NCBI GenBank assembly: GCA_963736975.1
Contig: CAVTQY010000002.1
Span: 364,949 to 428,948 of the forward strand
Reading direction: 5' to 3'
Length of the DNA stretch: 64,000 bases
Origin: an uncultured Pseudomonadota bacterium
GTDB lineage: Bacteria; Pseudomonadota; Alphaproteobacteria; Acetobacterales; Acetobacteraceae
The position numbers were made by a program, and so were the translations under genes. Each line of letters starts with the position of its first letter. Position 1 is the stretch's first letter. Below, in pieces: positions 11,351 through 36,072 of the stretch. The notes under the pieces were generated by a model that was not told where the DNA came from, searched no databases, and saw nothing but the letters and a program-made list of their open reading frames with translations.

Positions 11351-11635
11351 TTGGTACAACGACTCGAGCCGCCAAGGTCGACCCCAAACGGTTCAATGCG
11401 CGCCGTCGGTTTTCGACCGTCCCCACCGTGATACACCATCAGCTCCGCCCGCGGTGCCAACGCGGCCATATCCGACCAGGACCATCGACATCGAAACTGT
11501 TGGACATTTGGGGATATCGGCCGAAAAATGTCGGTGCGTGCGGCCGCCGCGCGGCAATCAGCGGCCGCGCTTGACGGGCGCCGCGAATGTCGGCCCTGCC
11601 CGGCCGGCTGCTTCGAGAACGGCGCAGGAGGCGAT

Positions 11636-13290
11636 ATGGATTATCCTTACGACCTCGGCCCTTATTCCCGGACGGTGACCACGGCCTCGGCGGACGCCCA
11701 GCGCTGGTTCGACCGCGGCCTCAACTGGTGCTTCGGTTACCACCATGAGGAGGCGATCGCCTGCTTCCAGAAGGCGCTTGAGGCCGACCCGAACTGCGCC
11801 ATGGCGCACTGGGGCATCGGCTACGCGGCCGGGCCGAACTACAACTTCCCCTGGGAACTGATGGACCCCGCGGGTAAGGCGGTGGCACTCGCGCGCGCCC
11901 ACTCTGCCGCCTGCGCAGCCCTCGCGCTGGCCGGAGGTGCCACCGCGCCGGAACGGGCGCTGATCGGGGCGTTGACCACCCGCTATCCACAGCGCGACCC
12001 CATCGAAGACCAGTCGCCCTGGAACGACGCCTTCGCCGATGCCATGCGCCACGCACACCAAGCGTATCCAGACGACCTCGACTTACGCGCCATATTTGTT
12101 GAAGCGATCCTCAATCGTACGCCCTGGCTCATGTGGGACCTGCGTACCGGCGAGCCCGCGCCCGGCGCCGGCACGCTGGAAGCGCGCGAGGTGCTCGAGT
12201 GCGCCTTCCGCGATCTGCCCGGGGCGATGGACCACCCCGGTCTTCTGCACCTGCATGTGCACCTGATGGAAATGTCACCGCATCCGGAGGTTGCGTTGGT
12301 AACGGGTGACCGACTGCGCGAGATGAGCCCGGACATGGGCCACCTGGTTCACATGCCCACGCACATCGACATTCAGTGCGGCTACTATCGCGACGCGATG
12401 CACTGGAATCATAAAGCGATCGTTGCGGACCGCAAGTTCTATGACCTCGCCGGGCCGATGAATTTCTATTCGGGTACCGGATACATAATTACCATTTCGC
12501 CGCTTACGGGGCTATGTTCCTCGGCCAGTACGCGCCGGCGATCGCGGCCGTTGACGAGCTGATCGCGACCATGCCGGAAGCGTTTCTGCGCATTCCTTCA
12601 CCGCCCATGGCGGATTTTTTCGAAGGATACGTTTCCATCAGGCAGCACGTGCTGGTGCGCTTCGGCAAATGGCGCGAGATCATCGCGCAGGAGTTGCCGG
12701 CCGATCGCGAGCTGTTTTGCAACACCGTGGCGATGATGCACTACGCCAAGGGCGTCGCCCACGCCGCGCTGGGGGAGGTGCAAGCAGCGGAGGCGGAACA
12801 GGCGCTGTTCAGGGACGCCGCGAAACGCGTCCCGAAGTCGCGGCAAATCCACAACGTGTCCTGCGTGCAGCTTCTGGCTGTGGCCGAGGAGATGCTGGCG
12901 GGCGAGATCGCGTATCGGCGAGGCGAGCACGATGCGGCGTTCGCGCGTCTCCGCGCTGCCGTTTCGCTGGAGGATGATCTGCCGTACGACGAGCCGTGGG
13001 GGTGGATGCAGCCGGTCCGCCACGCGCTGGGTGCGCTGCTGCTGGAGCAGGGCCGCCCGGCGGAAGCCGAGGTGGTGTATCGCGAGGATCTTGGGCTTGG
13101 GGGCGCGTTGCCTCGGGCGCAGATCCACCCCGACAATCTGTGGGCTCTGCGCGGGCTGCTCGATTGCCTCGAGCGGCGGGGCGAGACGGCGGAGGCCGCA
13201 CTTATTCGCCAGCGGGTGAAGTTCGCGGCGGCGCGTGCAGATTTGCCGGTATGGGTGTCCTGTTTCTGTGCCGGCGGCATGGCGGCCTGA
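11636..13290 (+). pseudogene. TPR-like helical-repeat protein gene split by a -1 frameshift at ~12472-12475
   Basis: ORFs 11528..12562 (ATG 11636, GGAGG upstream) and 12514..13290 are two halves of one protein. The frame changes inside TCGGGTAC. Reading ...PMNFYS then, in the second frame, YRIHNYHFAAYGAMFLGQYAPAIAAVDE restores a continuous sequence. Confidence 0.65.
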
Positions 13291-13305
13291 GTTCGAGCCG
13301 GATTT

Positions 13306-13644
13306 TCAGATCGTAATGAAGCTCTCGAGCTTGGCGCGAACCTGCCGGGCCACTTCCGGGCTCACCGAACTACCAGCATAACGGATCGGCCTTGCCATTG
13401 TTCGATGCTGCGCACATGGCTGGTCAGAATTTCTCCCACGACCGGCAATCCGGGCGGCAGGACGACGCTGGTCGGAAATGGCCGTATGCGGGACGTAATC
13501 GGACACACCACCGAAAGCCCTGTATTCGCGCTGAACGCCGCGTCGGAGATGACCAGCGCTGGCCGTCGTCCGGCTTGCTCGCGTCCCTTCGTGGGGTCGA
13601 AATCGGTCCAGATCAGGTCCCCCGCCCGCTGGCATATAGCTCAT
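13306..13644 (-). pseudogene. mazF: MazF/PemK-type toxin gene whose core is out of frame (two opposite single-base indels)
   Basis: ATG 13644 overlaps the mazE stop (ATGA). Frame A encodes MSYMPAGG and the C-terminus ARPIRYAGSSVSPEVARQVRAKLESFITI. The canonical core DLIWTDFDPTKGREQAGRRPALVISDAAFSANTGLSVVCPITSRIRPFPTSVVLPPGLPVVGEILTSHVRSIEQW is readable only in another frame, between the C5 run at 13619-13623 and ~13392-13395. Confidence 0.7.
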
Positions 13645-13898
13645 TCGGGAACAATCTCGCGGCCAATATCCGGTCCCCAGTCGTAGGCTCCGGCATATTC
13701 GGCTCGCCAATCTTCGGGCGACTTACCGCGAAACAGCTCCGCGAGCGATATTCGCCTCTCGCTCGGGCGAATGACGACTGCCCCATCCCGCGCCTCGATA
13801 TCGACCCGTTCGCCATCGCGAAGCCTGACTGCATCGGCGATCTCCGCCGGCAGGCGCACCGCCAGGTTATTGCCCCATCTGCCGACCGTAACCTGCAT
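13641..13898 (-). CDS. mazE: AbrB/SpoVT-fold MazE-type antitoxin
   Basis: ORF 13641..13982, start at M29 (13898, GGAG upstream). MQVTVGRWGNNLAVRLPAEIADAVRLRDGERVDIEARDGAVVIRP. Confidence 0.75.
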   Translation of the reverse strand: MQVTVGRWGNNLAVRLPAEIADAVRLRDGERVDIEARDGAVVIRPSERRISLAELFRGKSPEDWRAEYAGAYDWGPDIGREIVPE

Positions 13899-13976
13899 CG
13901 AGCGCTCCAATGGATGGTCTGAGAATATCTGTGGCGCGGACGGCAACAGGCAAGGCCTACCCACCGGCACCCGCTT

Positions 13977-14191
13977 CCTCAAAACCCCCGCACCTGCTCA
14001 ATCGTCCGCGCCTTCAGCTCTGGCGGCTCCTTCCACGGAAACACCGTTACCTCCGCCCGCGGCGCCAATGCCGCCACATCGGTCGATGCCTGCAACGGAT
14101 GCGCTGGCGTATCGTCCGGCATTACCAGCACCGGCGTCTGGCAACCCCGCACGAACTCCCGCGACACGCCGCGGGGATTGATTGCACACAC
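13977..14191 (-). pseudogene. Diverged duplicate of the 3' end of the alpha/beta-hydrolase gene at 18456..19217
   Basis: ORF 13979..14191 translation matches 51 of 62 hand-aligned residues of the C-terminus of the intact hydrolase (VSREF.R.C.TP.LVMPDDTPAHPLQAS.DVAALAPRAEVT..PW..PPELKA.TIEQVR.F). Nucleotides 13977-14172 align with 18488-18683. Confidence 0.8.
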
Positions 14192-14276
14192 GAGCCGAGC
14201 GCCCGAAGCGCCACAGGATTATCTCGCAGGCATTGCGATCTGGTGTAGGATGCGCCGATCGGGGGGATAGAACTGC

Positions 14277-17200
14277 ATGGTTCAGTCCACGCTGCATCTC
14301 GAAGTTGCAGAGTTCCGCGATGCCGATCATTGGCGCTTTGTGCTGAAGGAGGCCGGCGGGGCGTTCCTGGCCGACCACGTCGCCGCGCTCGATCGGGCCG
14401 ATGCCCACTATGCCGCGCTAGTCGATCTGCCGGGCTATCTGCGCATGCATAGCGCACCGGATACCCGTGCGGCTGATGAGCAGCGGCTACTTGTTGAGGT
14501 AGGTAGTTGGATCGGCAAGCAAGTGTTGGGCCGGAGCCTTGCGGAGAAGCTGCTGTCGCGGGTGCCGCCGTCGGTGGTGGTGCGCGTGCTGGTCCCGCCG
14601 ACGGCAGAGCGGCTGCTCGCGTTGCCGCTCGAGATCGCACGGCTGGACGGCGGCGAGCCCCTGTCGGTGCAGGGCGTCAGCTTCGTGTTCGAGACGACCG
14701 GCACGGCGCCGCCACGAGCGGAGCCAGTCGGCGAGCGGCTGCGCATCCTGGCACTATTCAGCCTGCCGCCGGTCGGCAGCCCGCTGAATCTCCGCCGCGA
14801 GCGGCAGATGCTGCGTAATCTGGTACGCCGCTTGGCCGGCGCGGCCGGTCTTGGGGTGGAGTTGCACGTCCTGCAATACGGCGTGACGCGGAAGAGCCTG
14901 CAGGAGGTGCTGGAGCAGGGCGAGGGCTGGGACGTCATCCATTTCTCCGGCCATGGCCAGCCGGGCGCGCTGCTGCTGGAGCGCTCCGATGGCAAGCCGG
15001 ACGAGGTCTCCTCGATCGATCTCGCAAAGCTGCTCCGACAGGCGGGCGGACGGGTGAAACTGGTGACCTTGTCGGCCTGCCTGTCGGCAGCGGCCAGCGT
15101 CGCGCAGACGCTGTCCTGGCTTGGCTTCTCGGAGGGAGAGGCGGCGAAGCGCGACGCCTCGCCGGCTGTAACCACGGAAAAGCAGGACACCAAGGCGGCG
15201 CCGACGGTCGCGCGGGCGCTGACCGAAACGCTCGATTGCGCGGTACTGGCGATGCGCTACGCGGTCGAGGACGAGTTCGCGATGAACCTGGCGCGGGAAC
15301 TCTACGACCGGCTGTTCCGCCAGAAGCAGCCATTGCCGCAGGCGACAAGGCTGGCGCTTGCCAGTGTCGCTGGGGGCGAACGAGGAATCCCCGCCGTGGG
15401 TGCGCTCTCCGCCGCGGCGCCGGCGCTGTTCGGTCCACGTTCTGCGGACCTGATGCTCGTCCCGCCCAAGGGCACGGGGATCGACGCGGATACGTCGCTC
15501 GCTTTCGTGCCGAAGCTGCCGGAGCACTTTGTCGGCCGGGTGTCGGCGATGACGCGCGCGAGCGCGGCGCTCGCCACCGAGAGCAGCCGGAGCGGCGTTC
15601 TGTTCCACGGCATGGCGGGCGCCGGAAAGACCAGCTGTGCGGTCGAGCTCGTTTATCACCACGCCGCCGTTGGCCGGTTCCAGCGCTTTGTCTGGTTCTC
15701 GGCGCCGGAGCAGGGCAAGGACATCGCCCTGGCGCTGCGTGACTTCACACTGGCGCTGGAACGCCAGATCCCCGACCTGGCCATGCTGCAGGTCATCGAC
15801 CGCACCGACGCGTTGCGCGACTGGCTGCCACGGCTGGCTGAGGTGCTGGAGAACAACGCGCTCCTGATCGTGCTGGACAACCTGGAGAGCCTGCTGACCG
15901 AGGCGGGGGTATGGCGGGACGAGCGCTGGGGGTTGCTCGTCGAGGCCCTGCTGACCGCGGGCGGGCTGTCGCGCACGGTGCTGACCAGCCGCACCCGCCC
16001 TGCCGCGCTGCCGGAGTCGACCGAGGTAATCGCGGTGCACGCACTGCCGCGCGACGAGGCGCTGCTGTTGGTGCGCGAGCTGCGCAACCTGCGCCGGTTG
16101 CTCGACGGTGCGAAAGAGACCGGCGTGAGCCAGGAGGCGGGCCGGCAACTGGTGCGCCGGGTGCTGCGCCTGGTGCAAGGCCATCCCAAGCTGATCGAGC
16201 TGGCCGAGGCGCTGGCCGCGGCGCCGGCAAAACTGGCCGCGCAGCTCGACGAAGCCGACAAGGCGCAGACCGCGGGTGCCGGCGAACTCGACGCCTTCTT
16301 CGCCCAAGGCGAGACGCGACTCGGTCCGGCGGAATTTGTGGAGAGCCTGCATGGCTGGACCCGCGGCATCGCCGGCGCACTACCGGAGGCTGCACGCACC
16401 GGCTTCCATTTCCTTTGCGCCCTGGAGGAGGGTGACCGGCAGGGTTGGATCATCGCGGCCAACTGGTCGGACGTGTGGCAGCGCCTTGGCCGCCCGGCGC
16501 CGGCGCCGGATTTTCAAGCGGTGCTCGCCCCGCTCGTCGCGGCAGGGCTGGTCGACAAACAGGCGACCGCCGACCAGGCGGACGAGTTCGAAGTGCTGAT
16601 CCATCCTGGCATCGCCGAGGCCGGCCGCGCCGAGGCTGGCGCGGACCTGCAGGCCGCCGTCGATCACGAGCTCGCCGCGACGTGGAACACGCTGTTTCGG
16701 AACGCTTGGAAGGCGGAGGGCCGTGAGGCCTGGGCCGGCCCAATGATGGTGCGCGCCGGGCTGCACGGCTTCCCGTACTTCGCCCGCCTTGGGCACTGGG
16801 AGTTGGCTGCGGGAATGATGGACAGGGCCGTGCATCTGGACACATCGCCCGGTACGATCGCCGCAGTGCTGCCGCTGCTACAAAAGGTGGTCTCTGCCGC
16901 GACGGGCACCGAGCGGCAGAATGCGGAAAACCGCGGCATCCTCGCCAAGGTTCTCGAACTGGCCGGCCGGACCGGCGAGGCGGAAGGCCTGCTCCGCGAC
17001 CTCATCGCGCAAACTGCCGAGCGGGGTGAGTTTGGGGCCGCCTCTGTAAATTCAGGCACTTTGGCCAAACTGCTCCGGCGCACCGGTCGGGCGCGCGAAG
17101 CCTTACAAGTAATCGAGCGGCAGGCCGAATACACCAAGCAGGCAGGCTACGGGGCATGGACACAGTTAGCCGACGAGGTTCGGCGTCTGCAGATCCGCGT

Positions 17201-18071
17201 CGAGCTTGGCGAACATAGCGATGTGCTCGCGCGCGTGCTGGAGCTGCGCGGGCAGATGCACCAGTTGCCCGATCCGCCCGAGGCGAACGACCGGTCGGTG
17301 ACCACGTGGAATGTGCGTGAGACAATGTTGGATGTCGGGCGCAACGCTGCGGTGGAATCAGGTGAATGGCAGCCAGCCCTTGATCTCAACGCTGAGATTT
17401 TGCAGAGCAGCGTCAACCGCGGCGCCGGGGCTTTTGAACTTGCGCGTGGCCGGTTCAACGATTACGGGCCGCTACTGCGGCTGCAACGTTATGGTGAGGC
17501 CCGCAGCCTTTTGCAGCACTGCCGGGACGTGTTCGAGCAGGAGAACGCCGTGGCGGAGCTCGGGGCGGTGTTCTCTGGCCTTGCGGATCTAGAGGACGAG
17601 CTCGGCCGTAAAGAAGCGGCGGGGCGTTTCGAGCAAACGGCAATTCGCTACGAATATGCTGCGGGAAACCCCAGCAGTATCGCTATCAGCCACTTCAATC
17701 TCGCCAAATACCTGACCAAGGCGGATGGCGATTGGCGCGGCGCGCTCGGACATCGGCTGGCCGCGGCAATGATCAGATGCATCACCGGATCGGCGGGATT
17801 GGAGCAGGCGATCACGGCACTCGCCAGGGATCTTCGCAACGCCGGCGGCCAGGCGAGCGCGGCTCTGCCCGGCGATTTGGCCGCGCTGTATGCGGACGTG
17901 CAGCAAGTCGAAGGCGTGCGCTTCCACGAGTTGATGCAGCGACTGCAGCCGGACGAGGCGGCACTGGAACAGCTCCTGCAAGACATTATCGCCGGTGCGA
18001 AGAAACGGGCCGACGCAAATGACGGTGCATCGCCTGATCGCGGGCCACAGCAGGGGGAGGGGTCACAATGA
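14277..18071 (+). CDS. CHAT (caspase-like) protease - STAND P-loop NTPase - TPR-like repeat protein, 1264 aa
   Basis: The CHAT dyad context is WDVIHFSGHG (His226, nt 14952-14954) and KLVTLSACLS (Cys268, nt 15078-15080). Walker A is VLFHGMAGAGKTS (nt 15609-15632) and Walker B-like is NALLIVLDNLESLL (Asp534). The C-terminal ~450 aa are helical repeats. It is a single uninterrupted ORF with coding-like G/C third positions. Confidence 0.85.
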   Translation: MVQSTLHLEVAEFRDADHWRFVLKEAGGAFLADHVAALDRADAHYAALVDLPGYLRMHSAPDTRAADEQRLLVEVGSWIGKQVLGRSLAEKLLSRVPPSVVVRVLVPPTAERLLALPLEIARLDGGEPLSVQGVSFVFETTGTAPPRAEPVGERLRILALFSLPPVGSPLNLRRERQMLRNLVRRLAGAAGLGVELHVLQYGVTRKSLQEVLEQGEGWDVIHFSGHGQPGALLLERSDGKPDEVSSIDLAKLLRQAGGRVKLVTLSACLSAAASVAQTLSWLGFSEGEAAKRDASPAVTTEKQDTKAAPTVARALTETLDCAVLAMRYAVEDEFAMNLARELYDRLFRQKQPLPQATRLALASVAGGERGIPAVGALSAAAPALFGPRSADLMLVPPKGTGIDADTSLAFVPKLPEHFVGRVSAMTRASAALATESSRSGVLFHGMAGAGKTSCAVELVYHHAAVGRFQRFVWFSAPEQGKDIALALRDFTLALERQIPDLAMLQVIDRTDALRDWLPRLAEVLENNALLIVLDNLESLLTEAGVWRDERWGLLVEALLTAGGLSRTVLTSRTRPAALPESTEVIAVHALPRDEALLLVRELRNLRRLLDGAKETGVSQEAGRQLVRRVLRLVQGHPKLIELAEALAAAPAKLAAQLDEADKAQTAGAGELDAFFAQGETRLGPAEFVESLHGWTRGIAGALPEAARTGFHFLCALEEGDRQGWIIAANWSDVWQRLGRPAPAPDFQAVLAPLVAAGLVDKQATADQADEFEVLIHPGIAEAGRAEAGADLQAAVDHELAATWNTLFRNAWKAEGREAWAGPMMVRAGLHGFPYFARLGHWELAAGMMDRAVHLDTSPGTIAAVLPLLQKVVSAATGTERQNAENRGILAKVLELAGRTGEAEGLLRDLIAQTAERGEFGAASVNSGTLAKLLRRTGRAREALQVIERQAEYTKQAGYGAWTQLADEVRRLQIRVELGEHSDVLARVLELRGQMHQLPDPPEANDRSVTTWNVRETMLDVGRNAAVESGEWQPALDLNAEILQSSVNRGAGAFELARGRFNDYGPLLRLQRYGEARSLLQHCRDVFEQENAVAELGAVFSGLADLEDELGRKEAAGRFEQTAIRYEYAAGNPSSIAISHFNLAKYLTKADGDWRGALGHRLAAAMIRCITGSAGLEQAITALARDLRNAGGQASAALPGDLAALYADVQQVEGVRFHELMQRLQPDEAALEQLLQDIIAGAKKRADANDGASPDRGPQQGEGSQ

Positions 18072-18455: not shown

Positions 18456-19217
18456 TTACCGGGCAACGGCTCTCACCGGCAGCTGCACCCTCAGAAACTC
18501 CCGCACCTGCTCGATCGTCTTGGCCTTCAACTCCGGCGGCTTGGTCCACGGATAGGCCGTCACCTCTGCGCGCGGCGCCAACGCCGCCACGTCCATCGAT
18601 GCCTGCAATGGATGCGCCGGGGTATCATCCGGCATCACCAGCATCGGTGTCTTGCAAGACCGCGCAAACTCCCGCGATACGCTGTAAACAAAATCGGGTC
18701 GTGCGCGGTAAAGATTGTGCAGATAGGCCTCGATCGTTACCATCGCAACATCTGGCCGTCGCGCCAGCAGTTCCGGCGCCCACACATCCCGGCCGGACCG
18801 GTACATCACGTCGGGATCGTCATCCCGATGCCCCACCGTCTGGCACAGCACGCCGGCCACCACGCGATCCGGCGCTCGCTCCATCAGCTTCAGCGCAAAG
18901 CAACCGCCGATGCAGTACCCCATGAAGAAGAACTGCCGGATGCCCAGGTGGTCCATCAGCCCGAGCTGATCATCGGTGAACGCGCCCCACGGGTCGTCAA
19001 CAGCGACAGGCCCCGTGGACTCGCCGCCGTTCGCGTTGCGCTGATCCATCGTGATGCAGCGGAAGTCGTCCTTGAAGACTTCCATCGCATTGAACACGGC
19101 GGTCGGCCAATGGCTGACGCCGGAGTTCAGGCCGCCGCCGGGAGTGACAAGCAGCGGGAAGCCGCTGCCGGTCTCCTCATAGCGGATGCGGACGTCGCCC
19201 TTTTCGTAGAATGGCAT
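18456..19217 (-). CDS. Alpha/beta-fold hydrolase
   Basis: 253 aa. MPFYEKGDVRIRYEETGSGFPLLVTPGGGLNS..., nucleophile-elbow-like FFMGYCIGGCFALK, and C-terminus ...PMLVMPDDTPAHP. Confidence 0.85.
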   Translation of the reverse strand: MPFYEKGDVRIRYEETGSGFPLLVTPGGGLNSGVSHWPTAVFNAMEVFKDDFRCITMDQRNANGGESTGPVAVDDPWGAFTDDQLGLMDHLGIRQFFFMGYCIGGCFALKLMERAPDRVVAGVLCQTVGHRDDDPDVMYRSGRDVWAPELLARRPDVAMVTIEAYLHNLYRARPDFVYSVSREFARSCKTPMLVMPDDTPAHPLQASMDVAALAPRAEVTAYPWTKPPELKAKTIEQVREFLRVQLPVRAVAR

Positions 19218-32902: not shown

Positions 32903-33196
32903 AGTGCGCAGTATCAGGGCACGGTGCAGTCCGCCAAGGCGGCGATCGCCACCGACCAGCTCAACATAGCGTACTGCCACATCGTCTCCCCGATTGATGG
33001 GGCGCGTCGGCCTGCGTCTGGTGGATCCCGGCAATTATGTGCAGACCAGCAACACCGCGGGGATCGCCGTCGTCACCCAGTTGCAGCCGATGTCACCTCG
33101 AAGACGCTGCCGCTGATCCAGGTGGAGGATCTCGGTGATACAAGGCTGGCGCAGAAGATATCGCAGCCGCCCGGCGTGGGGCTGGTCAGCATGGGC
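32903..33196 (+). pseudogene. Fused remnants of an RND efflux operon (MdtA-like membrane-fusion fragment + MdtB-like permease fragment)
   Basis: QYQGTVQSAKAAIATDQLNIAYCHIVSPIDG, then (frameshift in the GGGG run at ~32998-33001) RVGLRLVDPGNYVQTSNTAGIAVVTQLQPM, is the centre of an MFP. It is directly joined to IQVEDLGDTRLAQKISQPPGVGLVSMG, which recalls from memory an N-proximal periplasmic-loop segment of MdtB-type RND permeases (not aligned to a reference). Both fragments lack starts and ends. Confidence 0.55.
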
Positions 33197-33420
33197 TCGA
33201 TATCGACGGCCTACGCACCACGCCTGACAATGCCAATGTGGATGATCCGAAGGGCAGCGTCTACGGAGTTGGCTTCGAGCGGGAGGCCCGTGCGGGTGGC
33301 GTAGCGGCGTTCGATGTTCTCGATGTGTTTCACGTGAAACGTTCGTAAATAAACAGTAAACGAGGCGCTGGTATAAGGGCTCGTGCGCCGGTCCGATTAT
33401 CTGGGCGTAGCTGCCGCGAG

Positions 33421-33617: not shown

Positions 33618-36072
33618 ATGCCGATGTCGCCCGAGGGTTGGGAGCGGGGTAGGTCGGGCATTTACGTGTGGATAAGAATTGAGAGGTGGCCATTGTGCCC
33701 ATCGGCGACGGGTCGAGGACCGGGGGGCCTCGCTGCATGGCGGGCCATTCGGCGGCATCAATGCCTCTTTCCTCGAGTCCGGTCAAAGGTCGACTCCAGG
33801 CACAAGCTCGCCGAGACCGACCGGACAGGCGCGGCAAAACTTGTCGCGGAGTTTCACGCCCGGCTTTGCGGCGTGCGCGTGTTGATCCGGCCTGCGGGAC
33901 GGGGAATTTTCTGTATGTGACGCTGGAGCTGATGAAGCGGCTGGAAGGGGAGGTGCTTGATCTGCTGGTTGATCTGTCGCCGGGCGAAGGCGATCGGTTA
34001 TCGCTGAGCGGGGCGAGCGTTGATCCGCACCAGTTTCTTGGATTGGAGAAGAATCCGCGCGCTGTGCCTGTGGCAGAGCTTGTGTTGTGGATCGGCTGGT
34101 TGCAATGGCATTTCCGGACGCGCGGCAAGGCTCCGCCGGCGGAGCCGATCATGCATGACTTCCATAATATCCAGGAACGGGACGCGCTGCTGGCTTATAC
34201 GGATGAGGTGCCTGAACGCAACGCACGGGGCGATCCGATGACGCGTTGGGATGGCCGCACCTTCAAGCTGCATCCGATCACCGGGGAGGAAGTGCCGGAC
34301 GAAACGGCCAGGGTTCTGACGTTGCGGCCGGTGGGGGCGATGGCTCAGAGTTGGCCGGCAGCCGATTTTGTCGTCGGCAATCCGCCGTTCATCGCCGGCA
34401 AGGATTTGCGGACGGAGCTTGGCGAGGGCTACACGAAGGCTCTGTGGGGGGCATATCCGGACGTGCCGCGTTCGGCCGACCTCGTCATGTTCTTCTGGTG
34501 GAAAGCGGCGGAGCTGGCGCGAACCAGCGATCTGCCGCGGCGGTTCGGCCTCATCGGGTCCAACAGCATCCGGCAGACCTTCTCGCGCCGCGTCATGGCG
34601 GCGGCGCTGGAGGGCAAGCGCCGGCTGCATCTGGTGTTCGCCATTCCGGACCATCCGTGGGCGGACGGCGCCGGGGCGGCTGCGGTTCGGATCGCGATGA
34701 CGGTGGCTGAGCGATCGATCTCGGCGAAGCGGACCGGCCGGCTCGCCACGGTGACTGCGGAGCGAGCGGTAAAGGAGGGTGCGCCCGAGGTCGAGTTGGC
34801 GATGCGCGAGGGGGTGATCAACGCTGACCTGACGGTGGGGACGGATGTAACCTCGGCGCGGCCGCTGAGGGCGAACGAGGGGCTGTGTTGTCCCGGCGTA
34901 AAGCTGCATGGTGCAGGATTTATCGTCTCTCCCGCAACTGCACGCGGGCTGGGGTTGGGACGGATTGCAGGGTTGGAGCGGCATATCCGGCCTTATCTGA
35001 ACGGGCGCGATCTGACGCAGAGAAGCCGCGGGCAGATGGTGATTGATCTTTTCGGGCTCACGGAAGATGAGGTGCGGCAGCGGTTTCCGGCGGTGTACCA
35101 GCACGTCCTGCTGCGGGTTAAGCCAGAGAGGGATCAGAACAACCGGCCCAGTTATCGCGACGCGTGGTGGGTATTCGGCGAGCCGAGGCGGGAGCTGAGG
35201 CCTGGTTACGTGGCCTGCGACGTTATACCGCTACTGTGGAAACCGCGAAGCACAGGCCGTTTGTGTTTTTGCCGGCTGAGACAATTGCTGACAACATGCT
35301 GGTCTGTTTCGCCAGCGATGACGCATTGCATCTGGGTGTTTTGTCGTCGAGGTTCCATGTTGTTTGGGCGCTCGCGGCCGGTGGTCGGCAGGGCGTAGGC
35401 AACGATCCTCGATACAATAAGACACGTTGCTTTGATCCATTCCCTTTCCCATTTCCCACCCATTCGCAGGCGGAGAAGATTCGGGTCGCTGCCGAGGAGC
35501 TGGACACACATCGGAAGGCTCGACTGTCCGCCCATCCTGAGCTCACCCTGACTTCCCTTTATAATGTGCTCGTTGCTTTACGCGCCGGCGCCCCACTCTC
35601 GCCGGCGGAGCGCGACATCCATGATGCGGGGCAGGTGTCGATCCTGCGTGAGTTGCATGATCGGCTGGATGCAGCCGTTGCCGCTGCGTATGGTTGGCCG
35701 GTTGACTTGAACGACAGCGAGGTCCTCACACGACTTGTGACGTTGAATGCGGAGCGCCGAGCCGAGGAAGAGGCCGGGCTCGTTCGCTGGCTTCGGCGCG
35801 AGTATCAGGCTCCGGAGGAGACTGGCAGGCGTGCGACGCAGAGCAGCCTTGTCATCGAAGAAACGACCGTCGTGGAGGCGCTTCCCTGGCCGAAGCGGAT
35901 ACCCGACCAGTATGTCACTCTGCGTGCGGCACTTGCTGGGCATCCGGCGACGCCGACCGAGCTGACCCGCCGCTTCGTTCGGGCGCCGCGTACCCGCATG
36001 AAGGAGATGCTGGAGGCGCTGGTCGCCATGGGGCAGGCTCGGCAGGTCGGCGACGGGCGGTATGTGAGTTGA
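33618..36072 (+). pseudogene. Decayed MmeI-like (type IIL/IIG-like) N6-adenine DNA methyltransferase, 5'-truncated and frameshifted
   Basis: Motif I is split by a missing G at 33884: ...AEFHARLCGVRVL (frame of ORF 33618) / DPACGTGNFLYVTLE (ORF 33686). Motif IV is FVVGNPPFIAG. A second frameshift at ~35198-35203 joins ...WWVFGEPRRELR to LRGLRRYTATVETAKHRPFVFL...LGVLSSRFHVVW...CFDPFPFP (ORF 35164..36072). Only ~90 codons lie upstream of motif I, versus several hundred in full-length relatives. Confidence 0.7.

What the first reader, a model, noticed from the sequence alone, without database searches (positions are those of the whole stretch)
13306..13898. mazEF module in which the toxin keeps a full-length ORF but its catalytic core is out of frame (+1 and -1 indels 230 nt apart)
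Seen in the sequence: mazE (MQVTVGRWGNNLAVRLP...) is intact and its stop overlaps the toxin ATG (ATGA at 13641-13644). The annotated-frame toxin ORF (to 13306) has the right N-terminus (MSYMPAGG) and the right C-terminus (ARPIRYAGSSVSPEVARQVRAKLESFITI), but the 80 residues between are nonsense. The real MazF/PemK core (DLIWTDFDPTKGREQAGRRPALVISDAAFSANTGLSVVCPITSRIRPFPTSVVLPPGLPVVGEILTSHVRSIEQW) is read in another frame. That frame is entered at a 5-nt C run (13619-13623, one base too many) and left at ~13392-13395 (one G too few in CAATGG/GCAAGG). Inference: if the indels are real, this is a neutralised toxin that preserves ORF length and coupling. That could reflect a domesticated antitoxin locus or a first inactivating hit followed by a length-restoring second hit. 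If they are not real, two homopolymer errors hit one 340-nt gene.
Basis: partly seen in the sequence, partly recalled or inferred. Interest (0 to 1): 0.5.

Follow-up and report, generated by a model that had tools for sequence, protein, structure and literature searches.

The report
Frameshift-disabled mazF toxin beside intact mazE
This is an ordinary mazEF toxin-antitoxin pair in which two one-base indels have knocked out the toxin gene while the antitoxin stays intact, a common kind of gene decay, unless it is an assembly error.

Summary
On the minus strand, mazE (13898..13641) is intact and overlaps the toxin start through ATGA. The 112-codon ORF 13644..13306 has no family match as it stands. 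Removing one G from the GGGGG run (13623-13619) and adding one base between 13402 and 13401 restores a canonical MazF/PemK protein. That protein scores Pfam 2e-20 and PDB MazF 2.5e-24, and is 87% identical to intact metagenomic MazF.

A separate 1.8-kb Logan contig (run ERR11594400) carries both indels. Random error is unlikely to hit one 339-nt gene twice (about 3e-4). However, a highly conserved neighbouring TPR gene is also frameshifted, and the sequencing platform is unknown, so an artefact remains possible (about 0.2).

The kept ORF length is not remarkable, because 40% of intact homologues stay open after the same +1 insertion. Three of 80 related loci also carry a frameshifted mazF next to an intact mazE.

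Best reading: a recent, real toxin pseudogene with an orphaned antitoxin. This is known biology and of low interest.

The parts
13641..13898 (-). mazE antitoxin gene, intact, 85 aa (AbrB/SpoVT-type MazE domain). Its stop overlaps the mazF start.
   Evidence: PF04014 MazE_antitoxin 2.6e-12. NCBIfam MazE-like hits fall below the equivalog cut-off. 0 of 14 conserved columns deviate compared with 64 homologues. An identical protein is encoded on Logan contig L001.
13306..13644 (-). mazF pseudogene: the as-is 112-codon ORF, including the stop at 13308-13306. Only codons 1-8 and 82-112 are in the MazF frame.
   Evidence: The as-is product has no Pfam or NCBIfam match. The doubly repaired product scores PF02452 2.4e-20, PDB MazF 7d28 2.5e-24, and is 87% identical to intact P0001.
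13619..13623 (-). Indel site 1: a GGGGG run with one G too many (+1) at codon 8/9. The MazF frame is lost here.
   Evidence: DNA alignment with 13 intact homologues puts a single extra base just before GAC CTG ATC TGG. Sequence read.
13401..13402 (-). Indel site 2: one base missing (-1) inside the Asp81 codon (ATCGA^ACA; homologues have ATC GAC ACn). The original frame is regained here.
   Evidence: DNA alignments. Inserting C here and deleting one G at site 1 gives a 112-aa MazF whose junction SIDTMARPIRYAG is identical to L009.
13402..13620 (-). Out-of-frame MazF core (about 72 codons, DLIWTDFDPTKGREQAGRRPALVIS...HVRSI). It includes the equivalents of E. coli MazF Arg29 (13565-13563) and Thr52 (13496-13494).
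   Evidence: Three-frame translation. Alignment to E. coli MazF 1ub4/3nfc. The catalytic role of R29 and T52 is from established knowledge of MazF and was not tested here.

Best explanation
This is a chromosomal type II mazEF toxin-antitoxin module. It sits on an accessory, defence-gene-rich stretch of an Acetobacteraceae-like genome. Its toxin gene has recently become a pseudogene.

What the mutations do. A +1 slip in a G run at codon 8/9 and a -1 deletion in the Asp81 codon put about 72 codons of the RNase core out of frame. These codons include the catalytic Arg and Thr. The locus therefore cannot make an active MazF. If translated, it gives an Arg/Pro-rich nonsense peptide that carries only the last 31 residues of MazF.

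What remains. mazE is intact and is left as an orphan antitoxin and likely autorepressor.

The full-length ORF. It is a by-product of two things: GC-rich DNA rarely contains stop codons in other frames, and the second indel happened to have the opposite sign.

Shown versus inferred.
- Shown: the anatomy, the homology, the positions of the indels, the absence of other decay, and the presence of both indels in a second assembly.
- Inferred: that the indels exist in the DNA, the order of the two hits, and any residual role of MazE (for example neutralising related incoming toxins).
For: Homology. The hidden frame is a canonical MazF. The as-is frame matches nothing.

Homologues. 77 of 80 related genomic loci, and 3580 database proteins of 113-116 aa, keep the MazF frame uninterrupted.

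Second assembly. Logan contig L001 (run ERR11594400) equals window 13160-14957 and has both indels. Logan builds contigs from 31-mers seen at least twice. L001 differs from the window by only one 1-nt indel, at 13292/3, outside the gene.

Census of frameshifts in the 64-kb window (frame model plus Pfam plus homologues). Five frameshifting indels were found: two in mazF, two in a 5'-truncated MmeI-like remnant, and one in a TPR gene. About 50 other genes look intact.

Statistics. Under random error at that rate, the probability of two or more errors in mazF is about 3e-4. Two of the five indels fall in a gene that is independently dead, which is what real decay predicts.

Base rate. Three of 80 homologous loci (L051, L062, L081) also have a frameshifted mazF beside an intact mazE. 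Their contig names look like MEGAHIT or SPAdes output.

Recency. The repaired MazF deviates at 2 of 76 conserved columns (homologue mean 1.55), and MazE at 0 of 14.

Literature. Frameshifted toxins that leave orphan antitoxins are documented (PMC7354431).
Against: - The platform behind the window and behind ERR11594400 is unknown. L001 may derive from the same reads as the window assembly.
- A highly conserved 551-aa TPR gene about 0.9 kb away also carries a 1-nt deletion at 12474/5. Homologues are up to 90% identical, and the listed best hits are 547-568 aa, mostly 551. That looks more like an assembly error than like decay.
- Three indels, plus the L001/window indel difference, lie within 1.15 kb (P about 0.009 for three of five). 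This could mark a locally poor consensus.
- Related long-read MAG loci (L083, L084) show split genes such as an MCP and Mfd, as expected from such errors.
- Apart from the two indels the gene shows no decay at all. That is also what sequencing errors would give.
- No intact or frameshifted allele of the same lineage was found elsewhere for comparison.
Confidence: 0.72

Rival explanations
1. Assembly or sequencing artefact. The organism has an intact mazF. Both indels, and the TPR frameshift at 12474/5, are consensus errors in a locally poor stretch of an indel-prone (long-read) assembly. L001 repeats them because it was built from the same reads or shares a systematic base-calling error.
For: - A conserved TPR gene next door is frameshifted.
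- Indel-type anomalies cluster within 12474-13623, including the only L001-versus-window difference, which is itself an indel.
- Related long-read MAG contigs show split genes.
- mazF shows no other decay.
- Six other proteins of the window were not found by exact look-up, so independent coverage of this strain is thin.
Against: - Two different assembly methods agree at both sites.
- Site 1 is an insertion in a 4-base run and site 2 is outside any homopolymer. From general knowledge, neither is a typical systematic long-read error.
- The window has about 400 G/C runs of four or more bases (328+64+15+1), and about 50 other genes read through intact.
- A random double hit in 339 nt has P about 3e-4.
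- Frameshifted mazF alleles occur in assemblies whose contig names suggest short reads.
Confidence: 0.2
2. Selected, length-preserving neutralisation ('domesticated' locus). After a first inactivating hit, the second indel of opposite sign was favoured. It lets ribosomes run to the native stop, which would preserve operon mRNA stability or coupling. It also yields a harmless peptide with the MazF C-terminal helix.
For: - The two indels have opposite signs and restore the native stop.
- mazE is perfectly conserved.
- Each single-indel version would end early, at 91 or 93 codons.
Against: - Open shifted frames are expected by chance in 40% of homologues.
- mazE lies upstream of mazF, so its translation does not depend on mazF.
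- The other three disrupted homologues carry single, uncompensated frameshifts.
- The as-is peptide has no conserved counterpart anywhere.
Confidence: 0.05
3. Programmed recoding. Active MazF is made at a low level by a +1 ribosomal shift at GGG_GGA followed by a -1 shift near GAA_CAA.
For: The G5 run could in principle allow tRNA-Gly to slip by +1 (sequence). This is inference only.
Against: - There is no slippery heptamer or stimulator at the second site.
- Two rare events would have to occur in series.
- Homologues encode MazF in one frame.
Confidence: 0.01

Closest known systems
E. coli-type MazE-MazF (ChpA) type II toxin-antitoxin system; MazF/PemK family PF02452
   Same: - Gene order is antitoxin then toxin, with an overlapping stop and start.
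- MazE has the AbrB/SpoVT-type domain.
- The repaired toxin aligns end to end with E. coli MazF (1ub4, 3nfc, 5ck9; 1.6e-19) and with 7d28 MazF (2.5e-24). The Arg29 and Thr52 equivalents are retained.
   Different: The toxin reading frame is broken twice, so the as-is product is not a MazF. Scores against the NCBIfam E. coli MazF and MazE equivalogs fall below the cut-offs. This is therefore a family member and not an ortholog.
Degraded type II TA loci with orphan antitoxins, for example the parE pseudogene with orphan ParD in Caulobacter, the frameshifted yacB in Shigella, and Klebsiella orphan antitoxins (reviewed in PMC7354431)
   Same: The toxin is inactivated by frameshift while the cognate antitoxin gene stays intact. 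An anti-addiction or regulatory role is proposed for the orphan but remains untested.
   Different: Here there are two indels of opposite sign, so the native stop codon is regained and the ORF looks full length. No function of the orphan MazE was tested.
Frameshifted mazF alleles in related MAG loci L081, L051 and L062
   Same: - Same MazF subfamily: 70-80% identity over the aligned segments.
- mazE is intact upstream.
- 1-nt frameshifts are present. L081's +1 lies in the very same Asp codon as window site 2.
   Different: Those loci carry a single frameshift each and lose the native C-terminus or N-terminus. The window carries two compensating ones.

Membership tests
Type II mazEF toxin-antitoxin module | The toxin ORF encodes a MazF/PemK (PF02452) domain in frame. 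| tested here: not met
   The as-is 112-aa and 134-aa products match no Pfam or NCBIfam family. The locus is a mazF pseudogene and not a functional member.
Type II mazEF toxin-antitoxin module | An antitoxin with a MazE (AbrB/SpoVT-type) domain lies directly upstream in the same operon. | tested here: met
   PF04014 46.9 bits, 2.6e-12. The ATGA stop/start overlap is at 13644-13641.
Type II mazEF toxin-antitoxin module | Catalytic residues equivalent to E. coli MazF Arg29 and Thr52 are present in the translated product. | tested here: not met
Their codons (13565-13563, 13496-13494) lie in the out-of-frame stretch of the as-is ORF.
Type II mazEF toxin-antitoxin module | The toxin arrests growth (sequence-specific mRNA cleavage) and the antitoxin neutralises it. 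| not testable with these tools
   This needs expression of the as-is and repaired alleles with and without mazE.
Degraded TA locus with orphan antitoxin | The disruption of the toxin is real in the DNA and not an assembly error. | tested here: inconclusive
   Both indels are shared by Logan contig L001, and a random double error is improbable. Against this, the platform is unknown and a conserved neighbouring gene is also frameshifted.
Degraded TA locus with orphan antitoxin | The antitoxin gene is retained intact while the toxin is disrupted. | tested here: met
   MazE is full length and deviates at 0 of 14 conserved columns. mazF has two frameshifts.

The most novel reading that the evidence does not exclude
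The second, sign-compensating indel was selected. The locus would then make a non-toxic chimeric peptide that keeps the C-terminal 31 residues of MazF, and ribosomes would run to the native stop. This would preserve operon expression or MazE-dependent autoregulation. It would be a deliberately 'defanged' TA module serving as an anti-addiction or regulatory locus.
Probability: 0.04. Interest if true: 0.45.

Novelty: new member of a known kind. Interest (0 to 1): 0.15.

Why it matters
The stakes are small. If real, this is one more example of a chromosomal toxin-antitoxin module decaying toxin-first and leaving an orphan antitoxin. It also illustrates that in GC-rich genomes a doubly frameshifted gene can pass as a full-length ORF and be mis-annotated as a hypothetical protein. 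If it is an artefact, it is a reminder to check indel-prone assemblies before calling pseudogenes. In neither case does it open a new biological question.

Tried and rejected
- Exact look-ups of six other window proteins, intended to gather more independent contigs of this strain and measure indel disagreement, found nothing: TPR C-terminal ORF, Fur-like, hydrolase, PurA, NDUFA12-like. Only MazE hit, giving L001.
- Two exact DNA scans of JGI metagenome contigs across each indel site, allowing either allele, found nothing.
- Literature searches for ERR11594400 and neighbouring accessions, to learn the platform, found nothing.
- The GC3 frame plot and the frame Markov model do not resolve mazEF itself, because its composition is atypical.
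- Several overlapping same-strand ORF pairs were suspected of being frameshifts. They turned out to be separate genes: cvpA/purF, rbsD-like/luciferase-like, NIPSNAP/FAD monooxygenase, serC/serA, aroQ/accB, NDUFA12-like/MlaD-like, and two amidohydrolases.
- The antisense ORFs over mazEF (13392..13922 and 13405..13686, + strand) have no family match. They are shadow ORFs, although a gene caller picked one on L001.
- No sigma-70-like promoter, terminator or operator palindrome was found around mazE by simple scans.
- There is no synteny between this mazEF and its homologues, so no orthologous allele is available for comparison.
- Programmed frameshifting was rejected for lack of signals and because homologues use one frame.

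Full report
**1. What is there**

On the minus strand, mazE runs 13898..13641 (85 aa). Its TGA overlaps the ATG of the next ORF within ATGA at 13644-13641. MazE matches PF04014 (2.6e-12).

The downstream ORF is 13644..13306, 112 codons. It reads MSYMPAGG, then about 73 codons of Arg/Pro-rich nonsense, then TMARPIRYAGSSVSPEVARQVRAKLESFITI. As it stands it matches no Pfam or NCBIfam family, whether started at the ATG or at the upstream TTG.

A second frame contains DLIWTDFDPTKGREQAGRRPALVIS...HVRSI, a textbook MazF core.

**2. Where the indels are**

A DNA alignment with 13 intact homologues shows exactly two length differences.

- Site 1: one extra base in the GGGGG run at 13623-13619, just before GAC CTG ATC TGG.
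- Site 2: one missing base between 13402 and 13401. The window has ATCGA^ACAATG, where homologues have ATC GAC ACn (Asp-Thr).

The second was placed about 8 nt too far 3' ('13392-13395, one G too few'). It is not in a G run, and the residues 'EQW' assigned to the core are already out of frame.

Deleting one G and inserting one C gives a 112-aa protein. Its scores are:

- PF02452: 2.4e-20.
- PDB MazF 7d28: 2.5e-24; E. coli MazF: 1.6e-19.
- 87% identity to the closest intact database protein, among 3580 hits of 113-116 aa.

The equivalents of E. coli MazF Arg29 and Thr52 are R27 and T50. Their catalytic role comes from established knowledge. Both lie in the out-of-frame stretch, so the as-is gene cannot encode an active MazF.

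**3. Is the 'kept full-length ORF' meaningful?**

No. I applied the same +1 insertion to 77 intact homologues. The shifted frame stayed open for at least 73 codons in 40% of them, and beyond the natural stop in 34%. This follows from the GC-rich sequence.

The opposite sign of the second indel has roughly a one-in-two chance. With only one of the two indels the ORF would end at 91 or 93 codons. mazE lies upstream, so its translation does not depend on mazF.

**4. Real mutation or assembly error?**

Evidence for a real mutation:

- An exact look-up of MazE found one other contig, Logan contig L001 from run ERR11594400. It equals window 13160-14957 and has both mazF indels. It differs from the window only by a 1-nt indel at 13292/3, outside the gene.
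- Logan contigs are built from 31-mers seen at least twice and are simplified with Minia (PMC12424806). A different assembly method on that run therefore supports both sites.
- I took a census of frameshifts across the window using a frame-specific Markov model, Pfam and homologues. It found five frameshifting indels. About 50 other genes look intact, although the window holds about 400 G/C runs of four or more bases.

| Gene | Indels | Position |
|---|---|---|
| mazF | 2 | 13619-13623 (+1); 13401/2 (-1) |
| MmeI-like methyltransferase/TRD remnant (also lacks its N-terminal domains) | 2 | about 33884/5 (-1); about 35205-7 (-1) |
| TPR gene | 1 | 12474/5 (-1) |

- Under random error at that rate, the probability of two or more errors in the 339-nt mazF is about 3e-4.
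- Two of the five indels sit in a gene that is independently dead. Real decay predicts this pattern.
- Three of the 80 homologous loci (L081, L051, L062) also have a frameshifted mazF beside an intact mazE. Their contig names look like MEGAHIT or SPAdes output. In L081 the +1 lies in the same Asp codon as window site 2.

Evidence for an artefact:

- The platform of the window and of ERR11594400 could not be learned. L001 may come from the same reads.
- The TPR gene 0.9 kb away is very conserved. The repaired 551-aa product is up to 90% identical to homologues, and the listed best hits are 547-568 aa, mostly 551. Its single-base deletion looks more like an error than like decay.
- Three indels, plus the L001/window difference, fall within 1.15 kb (P about 0.009 for three of five).
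- Related long-read MAG contigs show split genes.
- Apart from the indels, mazF is undamaged: 2 of 76 conserved columns deviate, against a homologue mean of 1.55. Both a very recent inactivation and a sequencing error would give this.

No other copy of this lineage, intact or broken, was found.

I weigh this as about 0.7 real and 0.2 artefact.

**5. Mechanism (best reading)**

This is a mobile mazEF module with no synteny to its homologues. Its neighbours are:

- a 3' fragment of a hydrolase gene;
- a CHAT/NB-ARC/TPR defence-like gene.

Either indel alone disables the toxin, and their order is unknown. If the -1 came first, it would leave MazF residues 1-80 plus junk. Such a product might be poorly neutralised and could favour a second, earlier hit. 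This is inference.

MazE is intact (0 of 14 conserved columns deviate) and is left as an orphan antitoxin and probable autorepressor. A role in neutralising related incoming toxins (anti-addiction) is a known proposal for such orphans (PMC7354431). It was not tested here.

**6. Comparison with what is known, and novelty**

The family is MazF/PemK-MazE. Membership as a functional toxin fails, because the in-frame domain and the catalytic residues are not met. Membership as a degraded TA locus is met, apart from the open question of whether the lesion is real.

Frameshifted toxins with retained antitoxins are documented. They recur in this very subfamily in 3 of 80 loci. The finding is therefore a new instance of a known kind.

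The only unusual point is the sign-compensating second indel, and chance explains it adequately.

**7. Verdict**

- Interest is low (0.15).
- The most novel reading that the evidence does not exclude is a selected, length-preserving 'defanged' module that makes a harmless MazF-tail peptide. I give it about 4%.

Noticed in passing
window 11630-13290 (+), indel between 12474 and 12475: A highly conserved 551-aa TPR protein gene is split into two overlapping ORFs by a 1-nt deletion (TCGGG^TACC; homologues have GGC TAT). Repaired homologues are up to 90% identical, mostly 551 aa, in Acetobacteraceae. This is either an assembly error or a second pseudogene, and it bears on how far the assembly can be trusted.
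   Followed up: partly
window 33618-36072 (+); shifts near 33884/5 and 35205-7: Remnant of an MmeI-like type IIL restriction-modification enzyme. The MmeI_Mtase and MmeI_TRD domains are present, with two -1 frameshifts. No N-terminal MmeI domains were detected upstream. It is a decayed defence gene.
   Followed up: partly
window 13979-14191 (-) versus 18456-19217 (-); 14277-18071 (+): The 70-aa ORF just upstream of mazE is an 81%-identical (222 nt) copy of the 3' end of the intact alpha/beta-hydrolase gene 4.3 kb away. Between the two copies lies only a 1264-aa CHAT/NB-ARC/TPR (STAND-like) gene. This suggests an insertion or recombination that duplicated the hydrolase 3' end.
   Followed up: partly
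L081:1990-2030; L051:2120-2140; L062:1030-1080: Three related MAG loci carry single-frameshift mazF alleles beside an intact mazE. L081's +1 (GAT TAC versus GA- CAC) is in the same Asp codon as window site 2. This may be coincidence or a hotspot.
   Followed up: partly
L020:2900-3010: The reverse case in one Acetobacteraceae MAG locus: an apparently intact mazF preceded only by the last ~15 codons of mazE (...FDWGGDVGREIVEE). No full antitoxin ORF is present.
   Followed up: no
window 13292-13293: The only difference between the window and Logan contig L001 over 1.8 kb is a 1-nt indel (AA versus A on the minus strand). It lies 2-3 nt after the TPR gene stop, in the spacer between the convergent genes.
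   Followed up: no
window 32914-33300 (+): By eye, short out-of-frame pieces resemble an RND efflux membrane-fusion protein (…SPIDG / RVGLRLVDPGNYVQ…IAVVTQLQP…) and possibly an RND pump fragment. Pfam does not detect them. They may be further gene remnants next to the MmeI remnant.
   Followed up: partly
L083:7688-9752; L084:15249-18963: In the related contigs fetched for the TPR gene, a chemoreceptor gene is split into four ORFs and mfd into two. This shows that frameshifted gene calls are common in these metagenome assemblies.
   Followed up: no
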